DNA of 64,000 nucleotides from Prochloraceae cyanobacterium (GCA_030065755.1 JASJDA010000003.1:5454-69453); one strand, 5' to 3'; positions 12,920 through 26,826 are shown, numbered from the stretch's first letter. Notes: generated by a model from the letters alone, not told the origin. Numbers and translations: made by a program.

Positions 12920-14122
12920 TTACCAATCACTTTCAGTAAGTGGTTTCATTAACAAATCTCGAAGTCTATCTTTTTGGTCTCGATCTTGAGGACTATTTTC
13001 ATGGGTAATTATATAAATCGCATTTAATAGTTGATCCGTTGCTTTATCCATTGTCTCTCCTTGCTCCGGAACAAAGTGCTCAATTAATTGATTGATTTCG
13101 TCAGTTTTTTCGTTAAATAAATCTTCTGTAAAATGAGCTTTGACAATATTTTCTAGTTCCGGAACTGTAGGATCTGGCATTTTCACTCGTAAACATCGCC
13201 TTTTAAAGGCTTTTGGAAAATCTCTCTCTCCATTACTGGTCATAACAATAATAGGAAAAGCATAACATTTTACTCGTCCTCCTTTAATCGTGACATCAAT
13301 ATCTTCATCGCTCGTTTGCACTGTAAATAAATTATCTTTTTGTTTATTTTTAGATCGTCTAACTAATTCAGCAATTTCAAATTGTCCTTCTTCAAATAAA
13401 TTTAATAAATCGTTGGGTAAATTAATATCGCTTTTATCAATTTCGTCAATTAAGAGTACCCTAGGTAAAAAAGACGGTAAAAATGCTGTTCCTAATGCTC
13501 CTAATTTAATATATTGTCCAATGGGTTGTTCTTCACTATGAGAACCATCAGGATTAGGAGAATTATTAGGAATATGATTATTATTAGCATCTTGGAGTCG
13601 AGCTATTGCATCATAGCGATATAATCCTTCTTGTAAAGTAGAACGAGCAGTAATTGACCAAGACAATACTGAACCTAAATTTAATTCATAAGCGATCGCA
13701 TAAGCTAAAGATGTTTTTCCAGAACCAGGTCTTCCTGTTACCAATAAAGGTCTTCTCAAATAAATAGCTGCATTAACAGCATCTCTAACTTCGGTTGCAT
13801 CCTTAGAATCAGAAAGTCTAAAATTTTTACCTTTTTTTATCTCTCTTTCTTTCTTATTTGCTCTTTCAATTAATTGCTCGAAGCGGTTTCTGTCTATATC
13901 TTCAGGAGTTTGTTTTTTTTCTTTTTCCTTGTCTGTCTCAGACTCACTAATAACAAAATCTTCTGTTTTTCCAAACTGTCTCCAGGGCGGAGATTCTATC
14001 TTTTTAATATTGTCTCGTAGTTTGTGAATGTCCTCTTCAGTTAATTCTTTTTCTCTTCCTTTTCCTTGGAATAGATACCATTCAGCCATAATGAAATCTC
14101 CTTGTCTGTATTTATCTATCAA
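12920..14122 (-). CDS. MoxR-family AAA+ ATPase (VMAP-system type)
   Basis: PPWRQF, VNAAIYLRRPLLVTGRPGSGKTS, GLYRYDAIARL, LLIDEIDKSDINLPNDLL, TSNGERDFPKAFKRRC. Confidence 0.92.
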   Translation of the reverse strand: MIDKYRQGDFIMAEWYLFQGKGREKELTEEDIHKLRDNIKKIESPPWRQFGKTEDFVISESETDKEKEKKQTPEDIDRNRFEQLIERANKKEREIKKGKNFRLSDSKDATEVRDAVNAAIYLRRPLLVTGRPGSGKTSLAYAIAYELNLGSVLSWSITARSTLQEGLYRYDAIARLQDANNNHIPNNSPNPDGSHSEEQPIGQYIKLGALGTAFLPSFLPRVLLIDEIDKSDINLPNDLLNLFEEGQFEIAELVRRSKNKQKDNLFTVQTSDEDIDVTIKGGRVKCYAFPIIVMTSNGERDFPKAFKRRCLRVKMPDPTVPELENIVKAHFTEDLFNEKTDEINQLIEHFVPEQGETMDKATDQLLNAIYIITHENSPQDRDQKDRLRDLLMKPLTESDW

Positions 14123-16299
14123 AATCCAGTAAATATATCATCTCCTGGATTAGTAAATTTATCATCTCCTAAATTTTTATCAAATTTAGAATGTAATCGA
14201 TGAGGATCGTCAAATAAAAAACCAAGATGATATCCTAAATATTCATTTTGTTTTTCTTCTGGTTCTACATAAGCATTTTCCCTAATAATCCTAATTGATT
14301 CAAATAGGTTTTCAGGCTTTTTAATATTATCAACGGTTAAAACATCTTCAAATTCATAATTGTCTATCTTTTCTTCCTCTCTAAGCTTTAAATTTTCCAA
14401 GAAATTTCCTCTTAGCCAAAATGCAAAAGGAATACCATGACGAAAAATACTAGTTAAAAATTCTTCAATATGACAAGTATAACTTTCTTCTAGTAAAGGA
14501 CAATTAATATTAATGTTAATGAATTTAGTTAGTTGTTTTCCTAATTTTTTCCAGTTGTAGTTTTTTTCTAGTTTCTTCAGACAGATTACTCTCTTTTTAA
14601 TAGTTTCTGGGGTCAATGAGTCTTGTAAATCACTCAATTTCTTCCATTTACTTAATAAACTATGATGATAACTATAACTACCACTATAGCGATCGTAAGA
14701 ACGGAGAACGAATTTGTATCTAGAACCAAACCACTCAGGATCGGATTCATTAATAGGAATTTTTTGAATTTCAGGGGCAAAAACAACCAAATATTTTTTA
14801 GGCAAAAATAATTCTATTGTCAATTCATTTACATTTTCATAAAAAACTAACTTTTTATTACTTTCTTCAATAAATTGATAAACCTTTGAGCAAATATATT
14901 CAATATCTTCTGAGTTTACATCAATAGATTTATCTTCTATTAAAGTAACTGTTTTTCTTTTGACTTCTTGGGAGTCAGACATTTCTTCAAAAATCAATTC
15001 GGCTTTAAATTCCAATTTAGACTGGTGATGAATATTTGGCTCAACTAAAATAAGTAAGTAAGGTAACCCAATCTTACAAATAGTTTCTTCTTGCCTGTCA
15101 TGTTTAACCTTTGATAACTGATTTAAAGTATTGCTATCTATTCCCAGTTCTTGACTTGTTTGATTAATCCATTGATTTAGCTCATTTTTAATGGCTAATA
15201 GATCGGATTGCTGAGATTCAAAAAGAAATTGAGCAAATTCTACGACTAACGGTAGATTAGATTCATGATTCCGATCTAGTTTAATTTCTAATAAAATCTC
15301 TTTGAGATAATCGAAATTGTTTTCTTCGGATAAATGAAGATAGTTTCCTTCAGGATCCTTACTATATCTATATAAAAATTGATAACAATAACGAGATATA
15401 TTGTGCCATTTAAGAACATTTATGATTTTAACAAATTCTTGCCATTGCGAATCTAAAATATCAAATTGTTTTGCAGATTTAGTCAAAGCAATTCTTGACG
15501 GTCTATTACCATATTGATCTTCGTAAGATAAATAAATAGGACCTGGATCATTTTCATGATCTGTTTTAAAAATATCTTGTACATTTTCTATGATTTTATT
15601 TATAGATTCAGTAGATAATAAGTTATCTTGTTTATTTAGCTCTTTTAGTAATATTTTTGAAAATAATCCTGTTTTTTCCTTATCAAGATTTATACTCGGA
15701 TATCCTTTTTCGGTTGCTAGTAAAACAACTTGTTTACGTTTTTTATCTTGTTCTCCGGAAGGAAAATCATAATTTGGTAATGATACCAATTCCTCAGAAG
15801 AATAATTAGCATAAGAATAATATTTAGCACAAGCATCAAAGATCAATATTTGCTGATATAAAATACCAAATAACTCTGAGTTTAAATATTCTAATAAAGA
15901 GTTTAAATTGAGATTTTCATTTCCATCATCATAGTAAAATCTACGGTCATTACGGCCAATCATAACACCGTGTCCACCCCAAAATATATATAGTAAATCT
16001 CCTTTATCTTTATTCTTTGGAATAACTTTAGTAATTGCTGTGCGAATATTGTCAAAGGTAGCTTTTTGTTTTTTATCCCATAGTGATTGTAAAGATTTTT
16101 TATCCTTTACTATGTCTGGTTTAGATAATTCAGAAATATACAGTTCAATATTGTTAATAGGAACTTTTCTTGTCAACAGCCAATCTGCAAATTTCAAGGC
16201 ATCTGATGCGGGTCCATCTAAGTCCCAGTCCTGACCCCGATCGTATTTTTCTATACCAACAATCAGTGCGTAAGTTTTTTGAGGCTCGGGTACATTCAT
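14119..16299 (-). CDS. Caspase-like (C14) peptidase fused to VMAP middle/C-terminal domains
   Basis: YALIVGIEKY, LDGPASDA, catalytic His (WGGHG) and Cys (FDAC); C-terminus IELFLP, FVLRSYDR, GIPFAFWLR, LFDDPHR matches the VMAP-C pattern. Overlaps both neighbours by 4 bp. Confidence 0.82.
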   Translation of the reverse strand: MNVPEPQKTYALIVGIEKYDRGQDWDLDGPASDALKFADWLLTRKVPINNIELYISELSKPDIVKDKKSLQSLWDKKQKATFDNIRTAITKVIPKNKDKGDLLYIFWGGHGVMIGRNDRRFYYDDGNENLNLNSLLEYLNSELFGILYQQILIFDACAKYYSYANYSSEELVSLPNYDFPSGEQDKKRKQVVLLATEKGYPSINLDKEKTGLFSKILLKELNKQDNLLSTESINKIIENVQDIFKTDHENDPGPIYLSYEDQYGNRPSRIALTKSAKQFDILDSQWQEFVKIINVLKWHNISRYCYQFLYRYSKDPEGNYLHLSEENNFDYLKEILLEIKLDRNHESNLPLVVEFAQFLFESQQSDLLAIKNELNQWINQTSQELGIDSNTLNQLSKVKHDRQEETICKIGLPYLLILVEPNIHHQSKLEFKAELIFEEMSDSQEVKRKTVTLIEDKSIDVNSEDIEYICSKVYQFIEESNKKLVFYENVNELTIELFLPKKYLVVFAPEIQKIPINESDPEWFGSRYKFVLRSYDRYSGSYSYHHSLLSKWKKLSDLQDSLTPETIKKRVICLKKLEKNYNWKKLGKQLTKFINININCPLLEESYTCHIEEFLTSIFRHGIPFAFWLRGNFLENLKLREEEKIDNYEFEDVLTVDNIKKPENLFESIRIIRENAYVEPEEKQNEYLGYHLGFLFDDPHRLHSKFDKNLGDDKFTNPGDDIFTGF

Positions 16300-17507
16300 A
16301 ATTTTCTAATCCTATTTGCAATTGCTTCCCATGTAGCATCATTTTCCCAATAACCACCATGAGAGTGGGGAAAAGGAAGCTTATTATCAACAGGAATATC
16401 TTGCACTCTGTTCGGAAAAACATTTCCGCCAATAAAACTAAGAAAGTCATAGCGATCGTAGATATTTAACCATTCAGGAAAAGCATTAGAATCAGGTAAT
16501 GGGGTACCAAATTTTAAACTTTGCAGTGCATTAATTTCATAAAAATAAGGAACTTGAGAGCCAACTGTTACTAAGAGCTTAACTTTAGGAATTTTATTTT
16601 TAATTAATAAATCAACACTAGCAATTCCTCCTAAACTATGCGCAAGTAAAACTACCGGAGGTTGAGCATCTTTAATATAGTTCTCAAGCAAATCCCTAAT
16701 TGTTTGACCATGCCCTTGATAGAGTAAAATATCTCCAATCATTGGGGTCGTAATATCTGAAATTAGCCCTCTTTTTCCTGCTAATCCATAGGTGGGTAAT
16801 TTTAAGATTTGTTTTATAAACCAATTTCCAGGACCACGTTCTGAAGGCATAATTTCACTACTAATACTTTTAATAATTTTCTCTCTCTCAGTTGGGTTTT
16901 CCTCAATACTAGGGGGAGATTTTTTTTGTATTTTGTAAATAGAAATTGACTCAGCAATAATAGCTCTCGATATTATATCTCGATATTCAATTAAAGTATC
17001 ATCTGAAACTTGTTTGAGTGCTTCTCTATAAGAATTAGAGCTAACAACATTTTGATGAGCTTGACCAAAGACATCTGCAATTTCACTTTCTTTTAATTGA
17101 TTTTCAAATGATGTATTATTTGAAGGATTTAATTGTCTTACCTTCTCATCTATTATGTCACTGGGTTCTTTCTCACCTGGCCTAGATCTCTGTTGCTTCT
17201 TTGCTATTATCGAGAATAAACGTAATTCATAAAAAGAATCTAGAGATAGCTCCATCCAACGAACAGTATCTTCATTTACTGTAAAATCATTTCTAGTTGA
17301 ATCATAGAAAGGGATAGAAGCCCCATTAGCATTCAATTTAGCCCCTAGATAATTTCCCCACGAACAAGGAACCACTTCAATCTCTGGTAGTCTTTTTTGA
17401 AGTTCTAACTTAACTTTTGGAAATATTGTTTTTGATAATGATGTTTTTGTTTTTGATAATGATGTTTCTCTTACCGATATTCCATGTACAAATATTACTG
17501 TTGCCAT
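16296..17507 (-). CDS. Alpha/beta hydrolase (lipase/esterase-like)
   Basis: VIFVHGI oxyanion region, GDILLY, nucleophile AHSLGG, WLNIYDRYD, HGGYW (Ser-Asp-His triad). Confidence 0.85.
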   Translation of the reverse strand: MATVIFVHGISVRETSLSKTKTSLSKTIFPKVKLELQKRLPEIEVVPCSWGNYLGAKLNANGASIPFYDSTRNDFTVNEDTVRWMELSLDSFYELRLFSIIAKKQQRSRPGEKEPSDIIDEKVRQLNPSNNTSFENQLKESEIADVFGQAHQNVVSSNSYREALKQVSDDTLIEYRDIISRAIIAESISIYKIQKKSPPSIEENPTEREKIIKSISSEIMPSERGPGNWFIKQILKLPTYGLAGKRGLISDITTPMIGDILLYQGHGQTIRDLLENYIKDAQPPVVLLAHSLGGIASVDLLIKNKIPKVKLLVTVGSQVPYFYEINALQSLKFGTPLPDSNAFPEWLNIYDRYDFLSFIGGNVFPNRVQDIPVDNKLPFPHSHGGYWENDATWEAIANRIRKL

Positions 17508-17850
17508 AATTATTCTTTACTATATGCAAGGTAGACAAAACTGTTATCAGTATACATAATACTTGTGCAAGAACAAAAGTCTCGATCGAGATATATTTCA
17601 ACTCGATCTCTCTTTCATTGACCAGAACGCCAAAGCCTTGCCGAAAGGTCAATTAGTTCCAAAAAGAGCGATCGGTGTGGAGTAAATCTATATCAACAAA
17701 ATTTAACAATATCTTTTATATTTTTTTAATGGCAATTTTTTTCTTAACACCTTTTTCCTAACTAAGAGTATTAACTTTTCTAAAGGGAAAATAACAAAAG
17801 AGAGAATTTTACAGGTGTTATATAGACTTAGGGATACAGATAAAAAAATA

Positions 17851-17870
17851 AGCACCAAGATCTTGGTGCT
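17851..17870. promoter_or_regulatory. Perfect 20-bp palindrome upstream of the hisD paralogue
   Basis: AGCACCAAGATCTTGGTGCT, about 16 nt before the GGAGG RBS. Function unknown. Confidence 0.4.
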
Positions 17871-17896
17871 ATTTCTAGTGTTCCCAGGAGGAAGGC

Positions 17897-19216
17897 ATGA
17901 CAAGAATTCTGCGACTGGCAGAAATGACACCAGAAGACCTGGCTTCGTTAAAAAGACGAGCAGAATTGGACATCGAAAATGCTCTTTCAATTGCTAAAGA
18001 GGCGATCGATAAAATTAAACTACAGGGCGACTCAGCAGTTATAGAATATGTCAGGAAATTTGACTATCCTGGGGCAGAAGTAGGTAACATCAAAGTTACA
18101 GAAGAAGAATTCGATCGCGCGCAACAAGAGATCGAACCAGAAATAAGAGAAGCGATCGCCCATGCTTACTCTAATATTAAGGAAGTTCACCAACGCCAAA
18201 TGCCTGAAGAAATGAGCATGGCGGAAATAGACAAGGGTGTCTTTGCAGGAGAAAAAGTAACTCCAGTCCCCAACGCAGGGTTATACGTCCCCAGAGGTAA
18301 AGGCGCTTTTCCTTCAGTAATGCTAATGCTTAGCGTCCCTGCTGTGGTTGCTGGGGTTCCTAGAGTCATGGTATGTACTCCCCCCGATAAAAATGGGAAT
18401 GTGGAACCAGCATCTTTAGTTGCAGCAGCGATGGCTGGTGTCAAAGAAGTATATAAACTGGGAGGAATTCAGGCGATCGCTGCAATGGCTTTGGGAACCC
18501 AAACTATTCCTAAAGTTGATAAAATTACTGGACCTTGCAATGTTTACGGTTCTGCCGCCAAACGCTTACTATACGGTACAGTAGACGTAGGATTACCTGC
18601 AGGACCTAGCGAATCTATTATACTCACCGACGAGACTACTGACCCCCAATTAGCCGCTCTAGATCTATTAATTGAAGCAGAACACGGACCGGACTCAGCA
18701 GCACTTTTAGTGACTCACAGCGAATCTTTGGCTACAAAAGCGATCGAATACCTCTCCGAGTATCTCAAACGACTTCCAGAATGGCGCAGGAAATTTTGCG
18801 AGAAAGGACTCTCCTCCTACGGTGGTATCTTGCTAACTTCCAGTTTGGAAGAGTCGATCGCTTTTCTCAACGACTACGCACCCGAACACTTAGAAGTTTT
18901 GGTTAAAGATCCTTTTAGCATTTTAGGAGAAATCAAAAACGCAGGAGAAATCTTACTAGGAAATTACACTCCTATTCCTACTGCTAATTACTGTTTGGGG
19001 GTAAATGCTATTCTTCCCACAGGAAGTTTTGCTCGTTCCTATTCTGCTGTGTCGGTCTTTGATTTTCTCAAGCGATCGGGTATTGGCTATCTAACCCAAG
19101 AAGGATTTGAGAAATTGAAAAAAACAGCCTCTACTTTAGCAGAGTACGAAGGTTTTCCCGCTCACGCAATGGCAATTCGGGAACGAGATGTTTTGTTAAA
19201 ACCCGATCGTTCCTGA
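17897..19216 (+). CDS. hisD: Histidinol dehydrogenase-family protein (divergent paralogue)
   Basis: GLYVPRGKG, LGGIQAIAA, PAGPSE, DLLIEAEHG, APEHL, LPTG. Confidence 0.9.
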   Translation: MTRILRLAEMTPEDLASLKRRAELDIENALSIAKEAIDKIKLQGDSAVIEYVRKFDYPGAEVGNIKVTEEEFDRAQQEIEPEIREAIAHAYSNIKEVHQRQMPEEMSMAEIDKGVFAGEKVTPVPNAGLYVPRGKGAFPSVMLMLSVPAVVAGVPRVMVCTPPDKNGNVEPASLVAAAMAGVKEVYKLGGIQAIAAMALGTQTIPKVDKITGPCNVYGSAAKRLLYGTVDVGLPAGPSESIILTDETTDPQLAALDLLIEAEHGPDSAALLVTHSESLATKAIEYLSEYLKRLPEWRRKFCEKGLSSYGGILLTSSLEESIAFLNDYAPEHLEVLVKDPFSILGEIKNAGEILLGNYTPIPTANYCLGVNAILPTGSFARSYSAVSVFDFLKRSGIGYLTQEGFEKLKKTASTLAEYEGFPAHAMAIRERDVLLKPDRS

Positions 19217-19220
19217 GAGA

Positions 19221-19373
19221 TGGGGAGAGTGGGGGAGTGGGGGAGTGGGAGAGTGGGGGAGGTCAGAGGTCAGAGGTCAGCCAACAGCAAATAGCAAATA
19301 GCAAATAGCAAATAGCCAACAGCTAACAGCAAATAGCCAACAGCCAACAGCAAATAGCAAACAGCAAAGAACA
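19221..19373 (+). repeat. Compound STRR tract (GGGGAGT / GGTCAGA / AATAGCA-CAGCCAA heptamers)
   Basis: Three different heptamer families directly in tandem between hisD and the kinase gene. Confidence 0.9.
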
Positions 19374-19387
19374 AAAAGGAGCAAAAT

Positions 19388-20614
19388 TTGTCAGATATAG
19401 AGTTACAGCAAATCCAGGCTATTCAATTTAGCGATCGAGCCACTGCAAATCGATTGCTTAAAGATTTTTTCAATGCTAATTTACCTTTTGGGGTGAAAGA
19501 AGTTACCGTGCGTCCTTTAGCTGTTTCTCTGAATTCTATTAATGGATTTATCTTTACAGAAGAGGGAGAAAAGCTATTTTTTAAAACCCACGTGGAACCT
19601 CAAAGTATTATTGACGAATACTATAATTCTGGCATTTTAGCGGAAGCGGGTTATCCAGTAATTCAACCAATTTTTAGTTCTACGGAATGGGGAAAGCAAC
19701 TACTAATTTATAAGTTTTTTGACTCCCCTTCTTTGTTTAATGTCATCCGCGATTTGGAAACTAATAAGAGAACAGATGCAGAAAAAATAGTTGACATTCA
19801 ACAGGAAGCAGACGAACAATTGTGGGATATATATCTCAAAACACTGCAATCTTTAACAGCAGCAGAACACGCTAAAGTTCCCGTTCACCAGTTATTTTAT
19901 CATCGCTTAACTGGAGGACGTTTTACTAGCTTTTATCAAAATAAAGAGATCATTTTACCAGGAGAGAAGATCGACTTCGATCGCTTGGCCCAATTGAAAT
20001 GGGTTATTAATGGAATTGAATTTAAACACACTTTGGACGAATTAGTAGAATTAGCAATTCAATATTTAAATCCATCTAGTCAAGATACGTCGTCAGTAGT
20101 CGGTCACGGAGATGCTCACAACGGTAACGTATTTATTGACGAACAAAATAAAAGTTTAGTGTATTTCGATCCCGCTTTTGCAGGTCGTCACTCGCCTTTT
20201 TTGGATTTGACAAAACCTCTATTTCACAACGTTTTTGCTATCTGGATGTATTTTCCTCAAGAAGTTGCTAGCGAATTATCTATTCAAAGCAAAATACAAG
20301 AAAATACTATTGTTGTAGAGCATAATTTTGTGCCAGCAAAAGTGAGGATTGATATATTGCGATCGAAACTGGAAAGAGTCCTCAAACCTCTCTTGAAAGA
20401 ACTCAAAGCGAGGAATTTACTCGACGATCGCTGGAGAGAATATTTAAAATTAGCACTGTTTTGCTGTCCTTTTTTGACTATGAACCTGAGTGACTCGAAT
20501 AAATTTCCTCCTGAAATTTCTCTGTTAGGTTTTGCCATGTCAGTAGAAATGGGAAGTACAAACACGGGAGAAAAAAGAAGTTTACTCGATTCTGAATTGG
20601 ATAAAGTTATATAG
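19388..20614 (+). CDS. APH/choline-kinase-like small-molecule phosphotransferase of unknown substrate
   Basis: FFKTH (VAIK-like Lys), catalytic loop HGDAHNGN, metal-binding YFDP. TTG start preceded by AAGGAG. Confidence 0.7.
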   Translation: MSDIELQQIQAIQFSDRATANRLLKDFFNANLPFGVKEVTVRPLAVSLNSINGFIFTEEGEKLFFKTHVEPQSIIDEYYNSGILAEAGYPVIQPIFSSTEWGKQLLIYKFFDSPSLFNVIRDLETNKRTDAEKIVDIQQEADEQLWDIYLKTLQSLTAAEHAKVPVHQLFYHRLTGGRFTSFYQNKEIILPGEKIDFDRLAQLKWVINGIEFKHTLDELVELAIQYLNPSSQDTSSVVGHGDAHNGNVFIDEQNKSLVYFDPAFAGRHSPFLDLTKPLFHNVFAIWMYFPQEVASELSIQSKIQENTIVVEHNFVPAKVRIDILRSKLERVLKPLLKELKARNLLDDRWREYLKLALFCCPFLTMNLSDSNKFPPEISLLGFAMSVEMGSTNTGEKRSLLDSELDKVI

Positions 20615-20619
20615 AGAAA

Positions 20620-21180
20620 ATGACTAATGGTTTCGCTCCATCTGTAACACTAGAAGAGTTTTTGAGACTACTAGAAACTAAACCTGCATCTGAATTTGTT
20701 CGCGGAGAAATTATTAAAAAACCAATGCCTCAAGGGGAACATAGTAGATTACAATCTAAATTGTGTGCTGCTATTAACGAAGTTGCTGAATCGCAGAAAA
20801 TAGCTTATGCTTTCCCAGAGTTACGCTGTAGTTTTGGCGGATATTCGATCGTTCCCGATATTTCTGTGTTTCTTTGGGAGAGGATTCCTTTGAGTTTTTT
20901 GGGTAGAATTGCTAATCGTTTTGAGATTCATCCAGATTGGGTAATTGAAATTCTTTCTCCCGATCGAAAACAGACAAAAGTGTTAGAAAATTTGCTTCAT
21001 TGTTCTCAGCATGGGACAAAATTAGGTTGGTTAATTGACCTAGAAGAAGAAAGCATTCTAGTTGTGTTTCCCGAACAAAGGGTAAAATTATTTAGAAAAA
21101 AAACTCGATTACCAATTCTCCGACCGATCGAATTGGTGTTGACAGTAGAAAATGTTTTTAATTGGTTGAAAATGAAATAA
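20620..21180 (+). CDS. Uma2/DUF820 family endonuclease-fold protein
   Basis: ETKPASEF, KPMPQGEHSRLQ, FPELRC, VPDI, PDWVIEILSP, LGWLID. Confidence 0.92.
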   Translation: MTNGFAPSVTLEEFLRLLETKPASEFVRGEIIKKPMPQGEHSRLQSKLCAAINEVAESQKIAYAFPELRCSFGGYSIVPDISVFLWERIPLSFLGRIANRFEIHPDWVIEILSPDRKQTKVLENLLHCSQHGTKLGWLIDLEEESILVVFPEQRVKLFRKKTRLPILRPIELVLTVENVFNWLKMK

Positions 21181-21205
21181 TAAAAAGTCAAAAATAGCGA
21201 TCGCA

Positions 21206-22381
21206 ATGGAAAAACTTAATTTAGAACGACTCAATACACTGATTTTTGACTTAGATGGGGTCATTACTAGCGAAAAAAAATATTGGAATACTGCCAAACT
21301 CACTGTTTGGGAGTTAATTTGTAGCGAAAATTACTTGGGAATTAGTCAATATTTTGGCAACAGTCCCGACGTTTCGACGAGATTGGTTGACGTGGGAGAC
21401 AGAGTTATACCCAATAGCTTTATTTACCAACTCAAAAGTCGCGCAATTAACTCTAACTGGGATTTAACTTTTTTTGTTATTTGCTTACATTTAGTAGCTA
21501 TTCTCGGCGAATTTAAACGAGTAAAAGGAAATAGTTGGAATAATATTCTCGATAGCAACCATCTCTCGATCGCCGATAAATTAAAACAGTTAGGACGACA
21601 CCTACAAGATATCGAATATAGCGCACCGCGTAGCGGATCTCTTCGAAATCGTATTAGTAATAGTGTCATAGAAGAGTTTTGGCAAGAAACAATCGAGCTA
21701 ACTGGTACTGCAGTACTGGATTATGTGAATTATTTCAGTAACAAAAAATTAGGTGAGACTCTCCCCTCTTTAGATCCGAAAGGAGAATTGTGGCGATTGT
21801 GCTATGAAAATTTCCAAGCATGGTATGAAGGTAAAAAGGGATACGATCTACCAGATGACGAAACAGTATTAGATTTAGAGAAGATAAAAGCTACATTACA
21901 CACCTTAGGGAACGAGGGTCATTATACCTTAGCGATCGCCACGGGAAGACCGAGGAATGAAGTTATTGAACCTCTGAGTGTTTTAGGACTGCTGCAATAT
22001 TTTGACCCCAAACGAATTGTTACTTATGACGAAGTTTTAGAGGCTGAGTCGAGTTTATCCCACTCGCAGACCCAAATAAAACTAGGTAAACCCCATCCCT
22101 TTGTTTTGTATAAAGCAATTTATCCCGATAAAAGCGCAGACCAATTATCTAGCGATCGATTTCAACTCGCAAATGGTCAGCAAATAGCTTATATAGGAGA
22201 TGCTGGTAGCGATGTCGTCGCTGCTAAAAAAGCAGGATGTATGTCGATCGGAGTTTTGACGGGTTTTGCAGAAGGGAAAGCTAGGGAAAACAAAAAAAAG
22301 ATGTTAGCAGATCTCGGTTGTGATGTTATTTTAGACAGCGTAGTTGAGTTACCGCAATTACTGGGAGTAAAAATCAATTGA
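21206..22381 (+). CDS. HAD-superfamily hydrolase with a large cap (phosphatase)
   Basis: Motif I DLDGVIT, motif II ATGRP, motif III KPHPF, motif IV IGDAGSD. Confidence 0.88.
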   Translation: MEKLNLERLNTLIFDLDGVITSEKKYWNTAKLTVWELICSENYLGISQYFGNSPDVSTRLVDVGDRVIPNSFIYQLKSRAINSNWDLTFFVICLHLVAILGEFKRVKGNSWNNILDSNHLSIADKLKQLGRHLQDIEYSAPRSGSLRNRISNSVIEEFWQETIELTGTAVLDYVNYFSNKKLGETLPSLDPKGELWRLCYENFQAWYEGKKGYDLPDDETVLDLEKIKATLHTLGNEGHYTLAIATGRPRNEVIEPLSVLGLLQYFDPKRIVTYDEVLEAESSLSHSQTQIKLGKPHPFVLYKAIYPDKSADQLSSDRFQLANGQQIAYIGDAGSDVVAAKKAGCMSIGVLTGFAEGKARENKKKMLADLGCDVILDSVVELPQLLGVKIN

Positions 22382-23451
22382 AAGAGAAAATAGATAGTTT
22401 AATTAACGAAAATATCAAAGCTTTAAACCCCAAGCAAGCATTACCTAAAGCAGAAAATGCTATTTACTTGAATAAAGGGGAATTACCCTATCCTCCCTCT
22501 CCTGAAGTAGTAAAGGCGATCGTCGATGCTGCTACCACTGTCAACAGATATCCAGATGTATTAGGAGGTAATTTAAGAAAAGCATTAGCTGAATATACTG
22601 GCAAAAAAGTCGAACAAATTATTATCGGTAATGGTTCGGACGATTTGATTGAATTAATCATTAAAGTGTTTGTCAAACCAGGAGAAGAAGTATTACTTCC
22701 AATTCCCACTTTTTTCGTGTACGGTTTGGCAACTCAAATTATTGGAGGGGTACCAGTTTTTGTCAACAGAAACGAAAATTTCGATCTAGATATTGAAGCA
22801 ATTATAGAGAAAGTTACACCTAAAACTAAGATTTTATTTATTGCCAATCCTAACAATCCTACTGCTAAAATTACTGCTAAAGATACTATTGTAGAAATAC
22901 TCGATCGAGTCAATTGTTTGGTAGTTGTCGATGAATGTTACTATGAATTTTCTCGAAAAACTGTAGCAGATTTACTAGAAAAATATCCAAATTTGATTAT
23001 TTTAAGAAGCTTGTCTAAGAATTTTGGATTAGCAGGACTTAGAGTCGGCTATGGAATAGCAAGTGAAACTATTATTGACTATTGTTATCGAGCAGCTCAA
23101 CTATTTCCAGTTAATAAATTAGCATTAATTGCTGGAGAAATAGCTTTACAAAATCTAGAATATGTTCGAGAAAAAATTGCAGAAATCGATCGGGAAAAAA
23201 GCAATTTAACTAAAGAACTAGAAAAACTCGGCTTTATTGTCTGTCCGTCTGCTGCTAACTTTCTATTTGTCAGAACCAAACCTTTAGGAATAACTTCTAA
23301 AGATTTAGTAGAAGTATTGGCAAATAAAAATATCTTTGTAGCTGATTTTGGCTTAAAACAAGGATTAGATGCCTATTATTTTAGAACAAGCGTAGGCACC
23401 CCACAAGAAAATCAAGCCTTACTGAAAGCTTTGAACCGGAGTTTAGACTAG
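22378..23451 (+). CDS. hisC: Histidinol-phosphate aminotransferase-family PLP enzyme
   Basis: NRYPD, GNGSDDLI, NPNNPT, DECYYEF, RSLSKNFGLAGLRVGY (PLP Lys). TTG start overlaps the HAD stop. Confidence 0.88.
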   Translation: MKEKIDSLINENIKALNPKQALPKAENAIYLNKGELPYPPSPEVVKAIVDAATTVNRYPDVLGGNLRKALAEYTGKKVEQIIIGNGSDDLIELIIKVFVKPGEEVLLPIPTFFVYGLATQIIGGVPVFVNRNENFDLDIEAIIEKVTPKTKILFIANPNNPTAKITAKDTIVEILDRVNCLVVVDECYYEFSRKTVADLLEKYPNLIILRSLSKNFGLAGLRVGYGIASETIIDYCYRAAQLFPVNKLALIAGEIALQNLEYVREKIAEIDREKSNLTKELEKLGFIVCPSAANFLFVRTKPLGITSKDLVEVLANKNIFVADFGLKQGLDAYYFRTSVGTPQENQALLKALNRSLD

Positions 23452-23507
23452 TACTCGGTGCAAAACTCAAACCTTTCCCACATAAGCTTTAGGTTGCACT
23501 AGTCCAA

Positions 23508-24509
23508 TCATAGCAGCATCATGGAAATAAAATTTTCTTGAAAAAATTTATTGTTATCCTCAAACCATTTCCTAGCAGCAGTAGACTTTTTATTTTTTTC
23601 TTGTTGAGTATCTTCAATAACTTGAAAAACCTTTTTCTTTAGATCTAAAGGATCGAAATAAAACGTATCATGCAAATTTCGCTCTTTTCGCTGAATTTTA
23701 GAACACTCTACTAAATATCCTCTATCCGATTGAACTAGCTCATTCATAGGTTTACCGTTAGTTGTTACGATCGATGCACCGCAACTTAAACCTTCTACAA
23801 TAAAGTGACCAAAACCTTCAGCTTCGGATAAACAAAGATGTACTCCACATCTATTCTGTAAATCTAGAACCACTTCATCGGTTACGTATTCATCTAGTAT
23901 CTCAATATTGTGACAATTTTTATAATCGCTCTTATTGACTTGACGTGCTATTACAGTAAGTTTTGGAAATTCAAAATTATTTTTCCATAAATCTAATATC
24001 TGATTAGTTCCTCTTCGATAAGAACTCTTTCCAGCAAGATGAAGAAAATGATTATAATTTTTTCTTATTTTAGTATTTAAATTATCTTTTGATGAAAAAC
24101 TTATAAACTTAGAATTACAGCCAAGATTACTAAATATTTTCTGAGCGTATTTGGTCTTGCATAAAACACAATCAATAAACTCAAGTAAATGAACATTGTT
24201 AGTTGAAAACATCTCATGATTTGGAATTAAAATATTTTTTTCTGCATACCCTAAAAATTCGGGTCTAATTTTTTCTAGAAATATATTGATTCCAAATTTA
24301 CTGCCTCTAGTTTTTAGATATGTTTTGATTTTAGATGTTAGGCTTTGAGGTATACCTAATTTCTTAAAAATACGGCGTTCCGTTATTTTATAATGATTGA
24401 CTTTATAAGCAGATGATTGTAACAATTGCTGTATAATTTCAGCATCTTGTTCTAAACCAGTGGTTCTATTCAGAGCAGCTTTGTAAATCAGATTAACTGT
24501 TTTTTTCAT
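23508..24509 (-). CDS. GT4-like glycosyltransferase
   Basis: HLAGKSSYRRGT, SEAEGFGHFIVEGLSCG (E-x7-E), PMNELV. ATG at 24509 preferred; the longer ORF runs into a repeat. Confidence 0.8.
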   Translation of the reverse strand: MKKTVNLIYKAALNRTTGLEQDAEIIQQLLQSSAYKVNHYKITERRIFKKLGIPQSLTSKIKTYLKTRGSKFGINIFLEKIRPEFLGYAEKNILIPNHEMFSTNNVHLLEFIDCVLCKTKYAQKIFSNLGCNSKFISFSSKDNLNTKIRKNYNHFLHLAGKSSYRRGTNQILDLWKNNFEFPKLTVIARQVNKSDYKNCHNIEILDEYVTDEVVLDLQNRCGVHLCLSEAEGFGHFIVEGLSCGASIVTTNGKPMNELVQSDRGYLVECSKIQRKERNLHDTFYFDPLDLKKKVFQVIEDTQQEKNKKSTAARKWFEDNNKFFQENFISMMLL

Positions 24510-24636
24510 ATTAGGTTGAACAATTTGTTTATTTTCTTTATTATATAGATTAAACGATCGAGCAAAAACAGCAAAAAAAAGTTGGATAATACTTTGGTTT
24601 AGATTAGTACTCGGTGCGAAATCCAAAACCTTTACA

Positions 24637-24742
24637 GTCAGCACCCCGCACTAAAGTGACGGGGTTTCATGCCTCAAAACTTTAATTAGGTGAGACACCT
24701 TACTGCAAATGATTTGAAGAGGTTATGGGGTGTTGTGACCTC
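24637..24742. mobile_element. Orphan IS200/IS605-type end (hairpin remnant, no transposase)
   Basis: GTCAGCA-CCCCGCACTAAAGTGACGGGG-TTTC is the bulged CCCC..GGGG subterminal hairpin typical of IS200/IS605 ends. No tnpA, tnpB or iscB adjacent. Confidence 0.55.
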
Positions 24743-25797
24743 TAACGATCCCAATTTTCGAGATAGTTCATAGCTAATTCAGCAGGTGTATCATTTTTGA
24801 GTGTAATCTTTTTATTAAAAGTCGCATAAAGATTATTTAATATCGATACATCTTCAAAAATGAACCGATCGCGGAATTTGTTTGCCTTTTCGGGAATGTT
24901 GAGAAGTTTTTGCCACCAGGCAAATTCAAAATCCAAATAACTATTTAGAGAAACATTAGTTTTTTCTGGCGATTCTGGATACATAGAAACAACTCCTACA
25001 ACAAGTTGTCCTTTGAAATCTAAAGTAGCAACTGTCAAACTTGGTAAAAATGAATTTAAACATTGAACCATTACGTCTTCAAGTAATAGATTATTTTGAT
25101 TTCTTTTGGCATCTCGATCGTTCCTTTTATACTGAGTAAGTTGCCAAGAAATTTTATTCTCATTCTGAACTAGATTATCAATTTTGATTTCTTTTGTAAG
25201 AAAGGTATCTCGATGAGTCCCAGCAAAATGTTCCCCATCGTGTAGATTCCATATAGGTTGGAGAATATTACAGTTAACTGATTCAGAATGAAAATAAATA
25301 TGGTTGAGTTTGTTCAGATGCAATTGGGAATGAGATTGAGTTAAAAAAGGAACATTACTATAATCTGGAATAGGTAGTAATGGTTCAATTGGTTCGGAAA
25401 CTAATTTTCCTTCACTTTCTTTCCAATGAAGGCCATAAGTCCAAACTAAACCGTCAATAACTTGTAAAGGTAAAACTTGTTGTATTGCTTGACTGGAAAG
25501 ATTTCCTTCTACAATTACTTTCCCATCGCCTAAAAATTGGACTTTATTACCGTGATAAGGACAAGCCAAACAACTTTTTCCTTTAAACTCTAAAATGTAA
25601 CCGCCTTCAGCTAGATTGGCTCCAGCATGAGGACAGATATTATCTAAAGCATTTAAATTACCTTCTTCATCTTTCCAAATTACATAATCGTGACCCAGAA
25701 GAGTAATTAATTTGGGTTTATTAATTTCAAAACTGTCATATCTACCCAAACACCAAGGCGCGCCTTCATACATTTGTGTTTTAGTTTCAACTTTCAT
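24742..25797 (-). CDS. Rieske [2Fe-2S] non-heme iron oxygenase, alpha subunit
   Basis: CPH...CPYH Rieske ligands; NLHDGEHFAGTH mononuclear-Fe motif; distal ED. Confidence 0.85.
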   Translation of the reverse strand: MKVETKTQMYEGAPWCLGRYDSFEINKPKLITLLGHDYVIWKDEEGNLNALDNICPHAGANLAEGGYILEFKGKSCLACPYHGNKVQFLGDGKVIVEGNLSSQAIQQVLPLQVIDGLVWTYGLHWKESEGKLVSEPIEPLLPIPDYSNVPFLTQSHSQLHLNKLNHIYFHSESVNCNILQPIWNLHDGEHFAGTHRDTFLTKEIKIDNLVQNENKISWQLTQYKRNDRDAKRNQNNLLLEDVMVQCLNSFLPSLTVATLDFKGQLVVGVVSMYPESPEKTNVSLNSYLDFEFAWWQKLLNIPEKANKFRDRFIFEDVSILNNLYATFNKKITLKNDTPAELAMNYLENWDR

Positions 25798-25860
25798 TGT
25801 GGCTGTTACTCTCTTTGTATTTTTCTAATGACCAGTATGAAAAGTTTGCCGAGTAACTAG

Positions 25861-25897
25861 CTTGTACATTTTTGCTATTTTTGGATATTCTTGCTAT
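25861..25897 (-). promoter_or_regulatory. Candidate AraC-type direct-repeat site upstream of the Rieske gene
   Basis: Minus strand TAGCAAGAATATCCAAAAA / TAGCAAAAATGTACAAG; TAGCAA repeated at 19-nt spacing, starting at the araC stop. Confidence 0.4.
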
Positions 25898-26826
25898 TTA
25901 TTAAACTGTTTTGAAAAAGTTTTAGGCGTAATACCCACTAGACGCTTGAAATAACGATGAAGATGACTTCGATCTACAAAACCCACTTCCATTGCTATAT
26001 CATCTATGGATAATTTTCCCTGTTTTAATAAATCCTTAGCTCGATCGATACGACAGCGAATCACATATTGATGGGGGGTAATACCTGTAGTTTCCTTAAA
26101 AAGCCGAGAAAAATAATGGGGGCTCATTTGCACGACATTAGCTAATTCCTTTAAGCTTAAGTCGCGATCGAGATGAACGTAAATATAATCTATTACATGT
26201 CGTAATTTATATTGAGGCAGTTTTCCTGCTACACATTCAGAGGAATTGCCAGGAACAGAATAATGTTCTATTAAATGGACGATGAGTGTATTAACTAAAG
26301 TCTCTGCATAAAGACGACTGGTAGAACCACCTTTCGATAAAGCAGATTTAAGTGCGACTCCGATTTGGTAAACGAGTGGATCGGGAGTCGCAAACTGCGG
26401 TAAAAGTTCAATGCGATCGGGATCGACTACTTCGTGAATAGTTTGAGCAAAAGATGTAGGTTCGATCGCGATCGTGACTGCGCTACCTTCGCGATCCCAT
26501 ACTGCTTGATGAGTTGTGTTAGCAGGGACAATAATAATATCTCCTCGAACATTTTGTTCTTGCACCAAACGTCCGTCGATTTTTCTTTCTGTTTGCGCGA
26601 GTGATGAAGGTATATCGGTCAAAATTGCTATGCAATGTTGTTTTGCCGAAGTCTTAGGCATTTCAAATGGAGGCTGTCGATCGTAAGCAATACCGAGATC
26701 TTCCCAGCCAACAGATATGCTAGAAACAAGAGGAGATCGCCTATAAATACGTTTATAACCTTCTTCTTTCTCTTTAGTAAAATCTATTTGTTTTAAAGTT
26801 TTTAATTCTTCCATTACTGTTTTCAC
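25894..26826 (-). CDS. AraC-family transcriptional regulator
   Basis: C-terminal LSLKELA...SPHYFSRLFK...IAMEVGF...HLHRYFKRLVGITP double HTH. Confidence 0.93.
   Translation of the reverse strand: MKTVMEELKTLKQIDFTKEKEEGYKRIYRRSPLVSSISVGWEDLGIAYDRQPPFEMPKTSAKQHCIAILTDIPSSLAQTERKIDGRLVQEQNVRGDIIIVPANTTHQAVWDREGSAVTIAIEPTSFAQTIHEVVDPDRIELLPQFATPDPLVYQIGVALKSALSKGGSTSRLYAETLVNTLIVHLIEHYSVPGNSSECVAGKLPQYKLRHVIDYIYVHLDRDLSLKELANVVQMSPHYFSRLFKETTGITPHQYVIRCRIDRAKDLLKQGKLSIDDIAMEVGFVDRSHLHRYFKRLVGITPKTFSKQFNK

What the first reader, a model, noticed from the sequence alone, without database searches (positions are those of the whole stretch)
17897..23451. Unexplained histidine-like pathway: divergent HisD + APH-like kinase + HAD + HisC
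Seen: five co-oriented genes with tight spacing (HAD and hisC overlap). The HisD has DLLIEAEH instead of canonical DLL(S/A)QAEH, and NAILPT instead of NH(V/T)LPT. Known: HisC, a phosphatase and HisD perform the last three steps of histidine synthesis; cyanobacterial his genes are usually scattered; no small-molecule kinase belongs to that pathway. Inference: either the HAD is an unrecognised histidinol-phosphate phosphatase, or the cluster makes, salvages or degrades a different amino-alcohol(-phosphate), with kinase and phosphatase acting on one intermediate. This is a strong candidate for an undescribed metabolic module.
Basis: partly seen in the sequence, partly recalled or inferred. Interest (0 to 1): 0.7.

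Follow-up and report, generated by a model that had tools for sequence, protein, structure and literature searches.

The report
Kinase-like enzyme replacing histidine-pathway dehydratase
This gene cluster appears to be the organism's working set of genes for the last steps of histidine synthesis, in which an uncharacterised kinase-like protein stands in for the otherwise universal dehydratase (IGPD, HisB) that is missing from every genome carrying it.

Summary
Window 17897-23451 holds hisD-like, APH-fold kinase-like, Uma2 (a passenger), HAD and hisC genes.

It is not a side pathway. G000 has lost its native hisB (IGPD) and hisC, and its native hisD has lost its catalytic residues, while hisG, H, A, F and I are present.

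The kinase-like family is anticorrelated with IGPD. IGPD (PF00475) was found in 0 of 64 distinct kinase-bearing genomes (Cyanobacteria, Anaerolineae, Ktedonobacteria-like). It was found in 27 of 27 kinase-free relatives and 14 of 14 control genomes.

In Ktedonobacteria-like genomes the kinase is fused behind a HAD phosphatase. That fusion sits in the hisB slot of a his operon: hisZ-hisG-[HAD-kinase]-hisH-hisA-hisF-hisI(-hisD). In Hormoscilla the HAD is fused to HisC.

Best reading: the kinase-like protein replaces IGPD, probably by ATP-dependent phosphorylation of a hydroxyl of imidazoleglycerol phosphate followed by phosphate elimination. The HAD would be the histidinol-phosphate phosphatase. 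The variant HisD would be a working histidinol dehydrogenase with two swapped zinc ligands.

All of this is comparative inference with no biochemistry behind it. My literature searches found no description of a non-homologous IGPD.

The parts
17897..19216 (+). HisD2: variant histidinol dehydrogenase. Its signature at E. coli positions Q259, H262, E326, H327, D360, H367, E414, H419 is E-H-E-H-N-A-E-H.
   Evidence: The same signature is in all 55 kinase-adjacent HisD ORFs long enough to score. TIGR00069 scores 475.5 bits.
19388..20614 (+). APH/MTR-kinase-fold protein with an intact kinase catalytic loop (HGDAHNGN) and a DFG-like Asp (FDPAF). Proposed ATP-dependent substitute for imidazoleglycerol-phosphate dehydratase.
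   Evidence: for fold and motifs. for the anticorrelation with IGPD. for the fusion and the hisB slot.
20620..21180 (+). Uma2-family (putative restriction endonuclease fold) gene. Likely a passenger insertion and not part of the pathway.
   Evidence: PF05685 106.7 bits. No ORF of the 80 related loci matched it in the BLAST.
21206..22381 (+). HAD-IA-type phosphatase with a very large cap. Motifs DLDGV, ATGR, KPHP and GDAGSD are present. Proposed histidinol-phosphate phosphatase.
   Evidence: Fused to HisC in Hormoscilla. The same HAD type is fused N-terminal to the kinase.
22378..23451 (+). HisC, histidinol-phosphate aminotransferase. It is the only copy over the family cut-off in this genome.

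Best explanation
The cluster is a horizontally acquired 'lower histidine pathway' that has taken over from the native genes.

Proposed roles (all inferred, none shown):
- The kinase-like protein converts imidazoleglycerol phosphate (IGP) to imidazole-acetol phosphate.
- HisC transaminates that product to histidinol phosphate.
- The HAD removes the phosphate.
- HisD2 oxidises histidinol to histidine.

The proposed mechanism of the first step is as follows. The enzyme uses ATP to phosphorylate a hydroxyl of IGP, most plausibly the one next to the imidazole ring. Phosphate then leaves, in the same active site or spontaneously. This gives the enol and then the ketone. The net reaction is a dehydration paid for with one ATP, in place of the Mn-dependent IGPD reaction.

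What is shown here is gene content, phyletic complementarity, operon position, domain fusions and conservation of the kinase catalytic residues. Substrate, ATP use, the site of phosphorylation and the elimination step are inferred. HisD2 keeps the catalytic Glu-His pair, two His zinc ligands and the imidazole-binding Glu. It swaps the other two ligands (Gln to Glu, Asp to Asn), so one carboxylate and one amide remain.
For: (1) IGPD is missing exactly where the kinase is present.
- PF00475 was not found in any of 8 kinase-bearing genomes, including the complete Acaryochloris marina MBIC11017 record.
- It was not found in any of 50 further kinase-bearing genomes.
- It was not found in the 3 further kinase-bearing Anaerolineae of a class sample.
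- It was not found in any of 5 genomes with the fused form.
- That is 0 of 64 distinct genomes.
- In the window's order, IGPD was found in 27 of 31 genomes. The 4 without it are exactly the 4 with the kinase.
- The control rang in 14 of 14 known genomes.
- tblastn with the same-genus IGPD finds nothing in G000.
- At the syntenic site in G000 (C99), the 1286 bases downstream of the conserved flank hold no IGPD.

(2) The upper pathway is intact.
- hisF and hisG are over cut-off in 5 of 5 kinase genomes tested.
- hisH, A, F, I and G are found in G000.

(3) Operon position.
- In 6 of 6 fused-form loci the HAD-kinase gene is followed by hisH-hisA-hisF-hisI.
- In 4 of 6 it is preceded by hisZ-hisG.
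- In L168 the operon ends with a HisD of the same E-H-E-H-N-A-E-H type.
- In 37 and 34 loci respectively, nearly all Anaerolineae (36 and 33 by my split of the loci), hisG and hisZ lie next to the kinase, convergently.

(4) Fusions.
- HAD(N)-kinase(C) fusions number at least 396 proteins.
- A second, short-cap HAD is fused in P0262 and P0283.
- HAD-HisC fusions occur in 6 Hormoscilla loci.
- HolPase-IGPD fusions are known for the classical enzymes (passage in PMC13759103).

(5) The native genes are displaced.
- The second HisD of G000 is the syntenic ortholog of the canonical hisD of same-genus genomes, but reads Q-Q-Q-K-D-S-E-L at the eight key positions.
- The native hisC of the genus has no ortholog in G000.

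(6) The kinase machinery is conserved. 73 columns are invariant in 47 sequences from three lineages. They include K66, E77, H240-G-D242-A-H244, N247 and D261.

(7) Fold. The AF2 model has pLDDT 90.6. The best matches are PsiK (Z 21.4), MTR kinase (Z about 19) and LxmK of the lexapeptide dehydratase complex (Z 18.2).

(8) Chemical precedent.
- APH-like LanK kinases phosphorylate hydroxyls so that phosphate can be eliminated. In LanM the elimination happens in the kinase site (passages in PMC9486802).
- Ketosamine 3-phosphates made by FN3K are unstable (passage in PMC11754801).
Against: - There is no biochemical or genetic test. Substrate and mechanism are inferred.
- The Pfam APH hit is below the gathering score.
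- Most genomes tested are metagenome bins of unstated completeness. For any single one of them, a missing IGPD proves little.
- In the Anaerolineae sample, 41 of 146 kinase-free genomes also lack IGPD. Lack of IGPD is therefore not unique to kinase carriers. Those 41 may be auxotrophs, incomplete bins or yet another solution.
- The strict co-occurrence of HisD2 with the kinase, even when unlinked (4 of 4 Synechococcales genomes), is not required by a simple IGPD replacement. It may mean the pathway differs in a way I have not seen, or it may only reflect joint inheritance (congruent trees).
- G000 also has an IMPase-family protein (164 bits to HisN, below cut-off) that could be the phosphatase. 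The HAD's role is therefore less secure.
- A separate lyase partner, if one is needed, was not identified.
Confidence: 0.78

Rival explanations
1. The kinase-like protein has another role tied to HisD2, for example a regulator, a binding partner, or a kinase acting on histidinol or a related metabolite. The IGPD step would then be done by some other, unidentified protein that travels with the module.
For: HisD2 and the kinase are adjacent in 57 of 80 loci, often with overlapping ORFs. They co-occur even when unlinked, and their trees are congruent. The reaction is untested.
Against: Apart from HisD2 (a HisD-family dehydrogenase), no other gene is shared by the cyanobacterial, Anaerolineae and Ktedonobacteria-like contexts. 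In the fused-form operons every step except IGPD has a recognisable gene, and the only extra protein is the HAD-kinase in the hisB slot. G010 has a HisD2-like gene, no kinase, and does have IGPD.
Confidence: 0.1
2. The module makes, salvages or degrades a different amino-alcohol or amino-alcohol phosphate. Kinase and HAD would act on one intermediate, and the carriers would obtain histidine some other way.
For: 23 positions separate HisD2 from canonical HisD. They include the NAD-loop change G133R and the metal-ligand changes. A kinase and a phosphatase in one operon look like a cycle.
Against: The imidazole-binding Glu, the catalytic Glu-His pair and two His ligands are kept in all scored HisD2 (residue roles from passages in PMC5585171). 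No other functional-looking hisD or hisC exists in G000, while hisG, H, A, F and I are kept. Relatives lie inside his operons. From my own knowledge, Acaryochloris marina is grown photoautotrophically without amino acids.
Confidence: 0.05
3. The kinase is a non-canonical homoserine kinase or the missing histidinol-phosphate phosphatase.
For: One public source names a homolog 'putative homoserine kinase type II' (P0081). An asd gene lies upstream in Anaerolineae. According to GapMind 2026, HolPase is the step most often unassigned (passage in PMC13759103).
Against: Canonical ThrB is over cut-off in 5 of 5 kinase genomes tested. Of the Anaerolineae carriers tested, one has a HisN-type HolPase over the cut-off of 275 bits (284) and two fall just below it (274.5 and 260.5). 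Neither role explains the loss of IGPD.
Confidence: 0.03

Closest known systems
Imidazoleglycerol-phosphate dehydratase (IGPD, HisB; PF00475), including the bifunctional HolPase-IGPD HisB
   Same: Proposed to catalyse the same net step. The gene occupies the hisB position in his operons. It is fused behind a HAD phosphatase just as IGPD is in bifunctional HisB (a hisN-hisB fusion is mentioned in PMC13759103; the E. coli domain order is recalled).
   Different: There is no sequence or fold relationship. It is an APH/protein-kinase-like fold with nucleotide and Mg-binding residues, so it is presumably ATP-consuming rather than Mn-dependent. The fused HAD is an IA-type with a large cap, not the capless HisB-N type. 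No HisB-N model appears among the 10 NCBIfam families matched at E up to 0.001.
APH-fold small-molecule kinases: PsiK, 5-methylthioribose kinase, choline kinase and aminoglycoside kinases
   Same: Whole-chain structural match: Z 21.4 to PsiK over 318 residues and Z about 19 to MTR kinase. It has the HxDxxxxN catalytic loop and a DFG-like Asp.
   Different: Only 9-14% identity. It is below the Pfam APH threshold. It forms a compact separate family: 167 representatives at E up to 1e-30 among 1.84 billion. About 70 invariant residues lie partly outside the kinase core. The context is amino-acid biosynthesis, not antibiotic resistance or salvage.
Kinase-driven dehydration: class V lanthipeptide LanK/LanY (LxmKY, CaoKY), LanM, and FN3K deglycation
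   Same: An APH-like kinase activates a hydroxyl as phosphate so that it can be eliminated (passages in PMC9486802). LxmK is among the best structural matches (Z 18.2). FN3K products lose phosphate spontaneously (passage in PMC11754801).
   Different: Those enzymes act on peptides or glycated proteins. LanK needs a separate lyase. Here the substrate would be a small phosphorylated metabolite, and no lyase partner is conserved next to the gene.
Canonical histidinol dehydrogenase HisD (TIGR00069) and its paralog sulfopropanediol dehydrogenase HpsN
   Same: HisD2 scores 475.5 bits on TIGR00069. It scores 255-285 bits to the seven solved HisD sequences listed. It keeps E326, H327, H262, H419 and E414.
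   Different: Q259E, D360N and H367A, plus 20 further class-specific positions. It is further from HpsN (194-210 bits) than from HisD.

Membership tests
Histidinol dehydrogenase (TIGR00069 / PF00815) | Profile score over the curated cut-off | tested here: met
   475.5 bits against a cut-off of 243.8; PF00815 491 bits.
Histidinol dehydrogenase (TIGR00069 / PF00815) | Catalytic Glu326/His327 and imidazole-binding Glu414 (E. coli numbering) | tested here: met
   APEHLE and EGFPAH are kept. All 55 scored kinase-adjacent copies keep them. Residue roles come from PMC5585171.
Histidinol dehydrogenase (TIGR00069 / PF00815) | Canonical zinc ligand set Gln259, His262, Asp360, His419 | tested here: not met
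   His262 and His419 are kept. Gln259 is Glu and Asp360 is Asn in every HisD2. One carboxylate and one amide remain, so metal binding is plausible but untested.
Aminoglycoside-phosphotransferase-like kinases (PF01636, protein-kinase-like fold) | Pfam gathering score | tested here: not met
   20.4 bits against 23.2. Some homologs do carry a precomputed PF01636 hit.
Aminoglycoside-phosphotransferase-like kinases (PF01636, protein-kinase-like fold) | Bilobal kinase fold with catalytic loop HxDxxxxN, Mg-binding Asp and beta3 Lys | tested here: met
   Model pLDDT 90.6. Z 21.4 to PsiK and about 19 to MTR kinase. H240-G-D242-A-H244-x-G-N247, D261 and K66 are invariant in 47 sequences. The assignment of K66 and E77 to beta3 and alphaC is by position only.
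Imidazoleglycerol-phosphate dehydratase (PF00475) | Homology to the IGPD fold | tested here: not met
   No window protein matches PF00475 at E up to 0.001. No PF00475 match anywhere in G000. The claim is 'works like', not 'is a member'.
Imidazoleglycerol-phosphate dehydratase (functional role) | Converts IGP to imidazole-acetol phosphate | not testable with these tools
   Supported only by phyletic complementarity, operon slot and fusions.
HAD superfamily phosphatase | Motifs I-IV (DxDG(T/V), T/S, K, GDxxxD) | tested here: met
   D15-L-D17-G-V, T246-G-R, K295-P-H and G331-D-x-x-x-D336 are conserved in at least 95% of the 21 sequences aligned, the window's HAD and 20 fused forms. PF13419 scores 50.6 bits.
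Known histidinol-phosphate phosphatases (HisB-N HAD type, PHP HisJ type, IMPase HisN type) | Profile match to one of the three known families | tested here: not met
   The NCBIfam scan of the HAD gives only weak phosphoglycolate-phosphatase-like hits. G000 has no TIGR01856 match and only sub-threshold HisN-like proteins elsewhere.
Histidinol-phosphate aminotransferase HisC (TIGR01141) | Profile score over the curated cut-off | tested here: met
   321 bits against 276.55. It is the only one of 7 matches in G000 over the cut-off.

The most novel reading that the evidence does not exclude
A single APH-fold enzyme is an ATP-dependent imidazoleglycerol-phosphate dehydratase that phosphorylates and then eliminates phosphate in one active site. 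It would be the first non-homologous replacement of IGPD, a step regarded as invariant across life and a herbicide target. It arose in Chloroflexota as part of a his operon, often as a HisB-like HAD-kinase fusion. It spread with a ligand-swapped HisD to scattered cyanobacteria. There it displaced native hisB and hisC and left the native HisD as a conserved, catalytically dead protein with some new role.
Probability: 0.55. Interest if true: 0.9.

Novelty: new variant of a known kind. Interest (0 to 1): 0.86.

Why it matters
The abstract of PMC9798254 (search listing) describes histidine biosynthesis as conserved in fold and chemistry for every step except the histidinol-phosphate phosphatase. 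A kinase-fold substitute for IGPD would be a second exception, and it would use different chemistry: ATP-driven rather than Mn-driven dehydration.

Consequences if it holds:
- It would close an annotation gap that makes carriers such as Acaryochloris, Hormoscilla, several Anaerolineae and Ktedonobacteria-like bacteria look like histidine auxotrophs.
- It would give a function to a family of at least 167 sequence clusters, currently labelled 'hypothetical' or 'phosphotransferase'.
- It would give a candidate histidinol-phosphate phosphatase of a new HAD type.
- It would be an IGPD-independent route, relevant to IGPD-targeting inhibitors.

It also gives a clean natural example of a whole sub-pathway being replaced by horizontal transfer, with a dead-enzyme relic kept under purifying selection.

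Tried and rejected
- Homoserine kinase idea: rejected. ThrB is over cut-off in 5 of 5 genomes.
- Kinase as the missing HolPase: rejected. Of three Anaerolineae carriers tested, one has a HisN-type enzyme over the cut-off and two just below it. PHP-type HisJ was over the cut-off in none of the 10 genomes searched.
- Foldseek against PDB: only distant APH-family hits, TM about 0.45. This is not decisive for a substrate.
- ESM Atlas: only generic 'phosphotransferase' clusters.
- Rfam scan of 17000-24000: no match at E up to 0.1.
- Promoter/terminator scan: consensus-level matches only, nothing used.
- Sequencing runs: no RNA holder was listed.
- Complex prediction for HisD2 with the kinase: the job was never accepted. 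The queue was full, and the tool was declared unavailable. Whether the two proteins bind is untested.
- Earlier findings of this scan: nothing returned.
- Literature: 'histidinol kinase' gave 0 papers. Searches for a missing or alternative IGPD, and the passages I read in GapMind 2026, gave no description of an IGPD substitute. That paper's supplements were not opened and could bear on this.
- A link to sulfoquinovose (sqdB upstream of hisD2 in Anaerolineae) was considered. It was dropped as lineage-specific synteny, because it is absent from cyanobacterial and Ktedonobacteria-like loci.
- The C413 hisC-like gene of G000 (211.9 bits, below cut-off) looked CobD-like to me by recall. It was not scanned.

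Full report
**What is there.**
One search shows five co-oriented genes at 17897-23451. By Pfam and NCBIfam they are:
- a histidinol dehydrogenase homolog (TIGR00069 475.5 bits, cut-off 243.8);
- a 408-aa protein with only a sub-threshold APH hit (20.4 against 23.2 bits) and no NCBIfam family;
- a Uma2-family gene;
- a 391-aa HAD hydrolase with all four HAD motifs and a very large cap;
- a HisC (TIGR01141 321 bits, cut-off 276.55).

HAD and hisC overlap by 4 bases. Aligned to solved HisD structures, the window's HisD has Glu for the zinc ligand Gln259, Asn for the zinc ligand Asp360 and Ala for His367. It keeps His262, Glu326, His327, Glu414 and His419. The roles of these residues come from passages in PMC5585171. 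No ORF of the 80 related loci matched the Uma2 gene, so I treat it as a passenger.

**These are the working copies, not spares.**
- G000 has one other HisD, on contig C190. It is the syntenic ortholog of the canonical hisD of two same-genus genomes: the same flanking genes, 73-74% identity.
- That copy reads Q-Q-Q-K-D-S-E-L where canonical enzymes read Q-H-E-H-D-H-E-H. It has lost the catalytic pair and two metal ligands. Its dN/dS against the canonical orthologs is 0.12-0.14, so it is still under purifying selection.
- The window's HisC is the only one of 7 TIGR01141 matches over cut-off. G000 lacks the NF002726-type HisC found in 20 of 31 relatives. The native hisC of the genus has no ortholog in G000; its best hit is the window's gene at 32% identity.

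**The kinase is conserved and linked.**
- A scan of species genomes found 129 stretches encoding a relative, of which the best 80 loci were kept. They come from Cyanobacteria of several orders and from Chloroflexota, at 49-83% identity.
- A HisD lies directly upstream in 57 of 80 loci. The HAD follows in a subset of cyanobacteria and in one Chloroflexaceae locus. HisC follows the HAD in a smaller subset.
- All 55 kinase-adjacent HisD ORFs long enough to score carry E-H-E-H-N-A at the first six key positions. So do copies that are unlinked from the kinase in Hormoscilla and in 4 of 4 Synechococcales genomes. I call this type HisD2.
- 23 alignment positions separate HisD2 from canonical HisD.
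- Kinase and HisD2 trees from 53 loci plus the window have the same deep structure. This is what joint inheritance would produce.
- The family is rare in Cyanobacteria. It was found in 0 of 300 other genomes of a phylum sample and in 4 of 31 genomes of the window's order.

**The decisive pattern.**
I asked whether the rest of the pathway is normal, and found that imidazoleglycerol-phosphate dehydratase (IGPD, PF00475) is missing.
- IGPD was not found in 8 of 8 kinase-bearing genomes first tested. These include the complete Acaryochloris marina MBIC11017 record and a chromosome-level Hormoscilla. It was found in two same-genus genomes without the kinase and in G010.
- In the 31 genomes of the window's order, IGPD was found in 27. 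The four without it are exactly the four with the kinase, and they belong to four different families.
- It was found in 0 of 50 further kinase-bearing genomes. Two of these duplicate G012 and G020.
- In a 151-genome sample of the class of G033, 105 genomes have IGPD and 5 have the kinase, with no overlap.
- It was found in 0 of 5 genomes with the fused form.
- In total, 0 of 64 distinct kinase-bearing genomes gave an IGPD match. The same search rang in 14 of 14 control genomes every time.
- In G000 itself, tblastn with same-genus IGPD finds only noise (E above 1). At the syntenic site (C99), the 1286 bases downstream of the conserved flank hold no IGPD.
- The genes that make IGP are present. 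hisF and hisG are over cut-off in 5 of 5 carriers tested. hisG, H, A, F and I are found in G000.

Against the pattern: 41 of the 146 kinase-free genomes in the class sample also lack IGPD. Most of the genomes tested are bins of unstated completeness.

**Operon slot and fusions.**
- A search for longer relatives gave at least 396 proteins of about 770-870 aa in which a HAD of the window's long-cap type is fused in front of the kinase. Sources name Ktedonobacteraceae.
- In a 301-genome Chloroflexota sample, 21 genomes carry the kinase. About 17 of them have this fused form, judged from match ranges and open-frame lengths.
- In 6 of 6 fused-form loci examined, the fusion gene is immediately followed by hisH, hisA, hisF and hisI. 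In 4 of 6 it is preceded by hisZ and hisG. In L168 the operon ends in a HisD2 with the full E-H-E-H-N-A-E-H signature. This is the place hisB holds in classical his operons (recalled).
- The N-terminal phosphatase and C-terminal 'dehydratase' order mirrors bifunctional HisB. The E. coli order is recalled; a hisN-hisB fusion is mentioned in PMC13759103.
- Two representatives carry a different, short-cap HAD in front of the kinase (P0262 and P0283). The fusion therefore seems to have arisen more than once.
- In six Hormoscilla loci, the HAD is instead fused to HisC, directly after the kinase.
- In 37 and 34 loci respectively, nearly all Anaerolineae (36 and 33 by my split of the loci), hisG and hisZ lie next to the kinase.

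**What the protein is.**
- The AF2 model is confident: pLDDT 90.6, pTM 0.87.
- It is a protein-kinase-like/APH fold. The best matches are PsiK (Z 21.4, 318 residues aligned), MTR kinases (Z about 19) and LxmK of the lexapeptide dehydratase complex (Z 18.2). Foldseek gives only distant hits.
- Across 47 sequences from the three lineages, 73 columns are invariant. They include K66, E77, the loop H240-G-D-A-H-x-G-N247 and D261, plus many His, Arg and Lys outside the kinase core.
- In 1.84 billion representatives, the profile finds 167 clusters at E up to 1e-30 and 537 at E up to 0.001. The family is compact and distinct.

**How it most likely works.**
Shown: complementarity with IGPD, the hisB slot, HisB-like fusions and intact nucleotide-binding and catalytic residues.

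Inferred: the enzyme phosphorylates a hydroxyl of IGP with ATP, and phosphate is then eliminated to give imidazole-acetol phosphate. Phosphorylation as a way to dehydrate is established for APH-like LanK kinases. In LanM the elimination takes place in the kinase site itself (passages in PMC9486802). FN3K products lose phosphate on their own (passage in PMC11754801).

The rest of the proposed route:
- HisC transaminates.
- The HAD dephosphorylates. This is supported by its fusions on both sides. It is weakened by the presence of an IMPase-family candidate in G000 and of HisN-type proteins at or near the cut-off in Anaerolineae carriers, which have no HAD in the module.
- HisD2 oxidises histidinol.

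That HisD2 is a true histidinol dehydrogenase follows from several observations:
- It retains the substrate-binding and catalytic residues.
- It is the only HisD found in G035.
- The canonical-lineage copy has lost key residues in 9 of the 10 cyanobacterial carriers where I scored it: G000, G020, G030, G031, G032 and G347-G350. G012 keeps an intact one.

Why HisD2 always accompanies the kinase is not explained. Joint transfer followed by loss of the native genes would account for it. G010 (HisD2-like, IGPD present, no kinase) shows that the two are separable.

**Rejected ideas.**
- Homoserine kinase.
- Kinase as HolPase.
- A different amino-alcohol pathway (see the rival explanations).
- A sulfoquinovose link through the sqdB neighbour in Anaerolineae, judged to be lineage-specific.

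**Novelty.**
- 'Histidinol kinase' returned 0 papers.
- Four searches for a missing or alternative IGPD found no such report.
- The GapMind 2026 passages I read list hisN, hisI, serB and thrB as the main remaining gaps, not hisB. I did not open its supplements.
- The abstract of PMC9798254 (listing) names HolPase as the only non-homologous exception in the pathway.

I therefore rate this a new variant of a known system, a his operon with an analogous enzyme. It needs complementation and enzymology to confirm.

Noticed in passing
G000 contig C190 (locus L002 1402-2724); also L122, L115, L124, L137, L135, L152-L155: Catalytically dead HisD relics. In carriers of HisD2 the canonical-lineage HisD keeps an intact reading frame of about 440 aa but has lost most catalytic and zinc residues, with different patterns in different lineages. 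It is under purifying selection: dN/dS is 0.07 between two Synechococcales copies and 0.12-0.14 for G000 against canonical orthologs. In Synechococcales it lies next to a HisC-like gene. This suggests a pseudoenzyme with a new role.
   Followed up: partly
window 12920-17507, minus strand: Upstream of the module lie an AAA/MoxR-like ATPase, a caspase-domain protein with a vWA-MoxR-associated C-terminal domain (VMAP-C), and an alpha/beta-hydrolase-like protein. This looks like a conflict or defence-type system in an accessory region.
   Followed up: no
window 20620-21180: A Uma2-family (putative restriction endonuclease fold) gene is inserted between the kinase and the HAD. No ORF of the 80 related loci matched it.
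   Followed up: partly
L058 5260-7965: In one Chloroflexi locus, UDP-sulfoquinovose synthase (547 bits to NF041015, just under its cut-off) and HisD2 form a single 902-aa open frame. In other Anaerolineae they are adjacent separate genes. Whether this is a real fusion or a missed stop is not resolved.
   Followed up: no
G010 (loci L117/L126) and G018 (loci L116, L123): G010 has a HisD2-like gene (E-H-E-H-T-A-E-H, 64% identity), no kinase, an IGPD and a very degenerate second HisD. G018 has no HisD2 or kinase, but it has one degenerate HisD (Q-Q-Q-H-L-H-E-H) plus a canonical one next to a hisC. HisD duplication and decay are therefore not confined to kinase carriers.
   Followed up: partly
P0343, P0355, P0361, P0376, P0360, P0372, P0385: A more distant branch of the kinase family (E 1e-36 to 1e-50) has about 300 extra N-terminal residues with no Pfam match. 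Its context and function were not examined.
   Followed up: no
window 23508-26826, minus strand: Downstream neighbours are a GT1-family glycosyltransferase, a Rieske [2Fe-2S] oxygenase-like protein and an AraC-type regulator. They matched nothing in the related loci.
   Followed up: no
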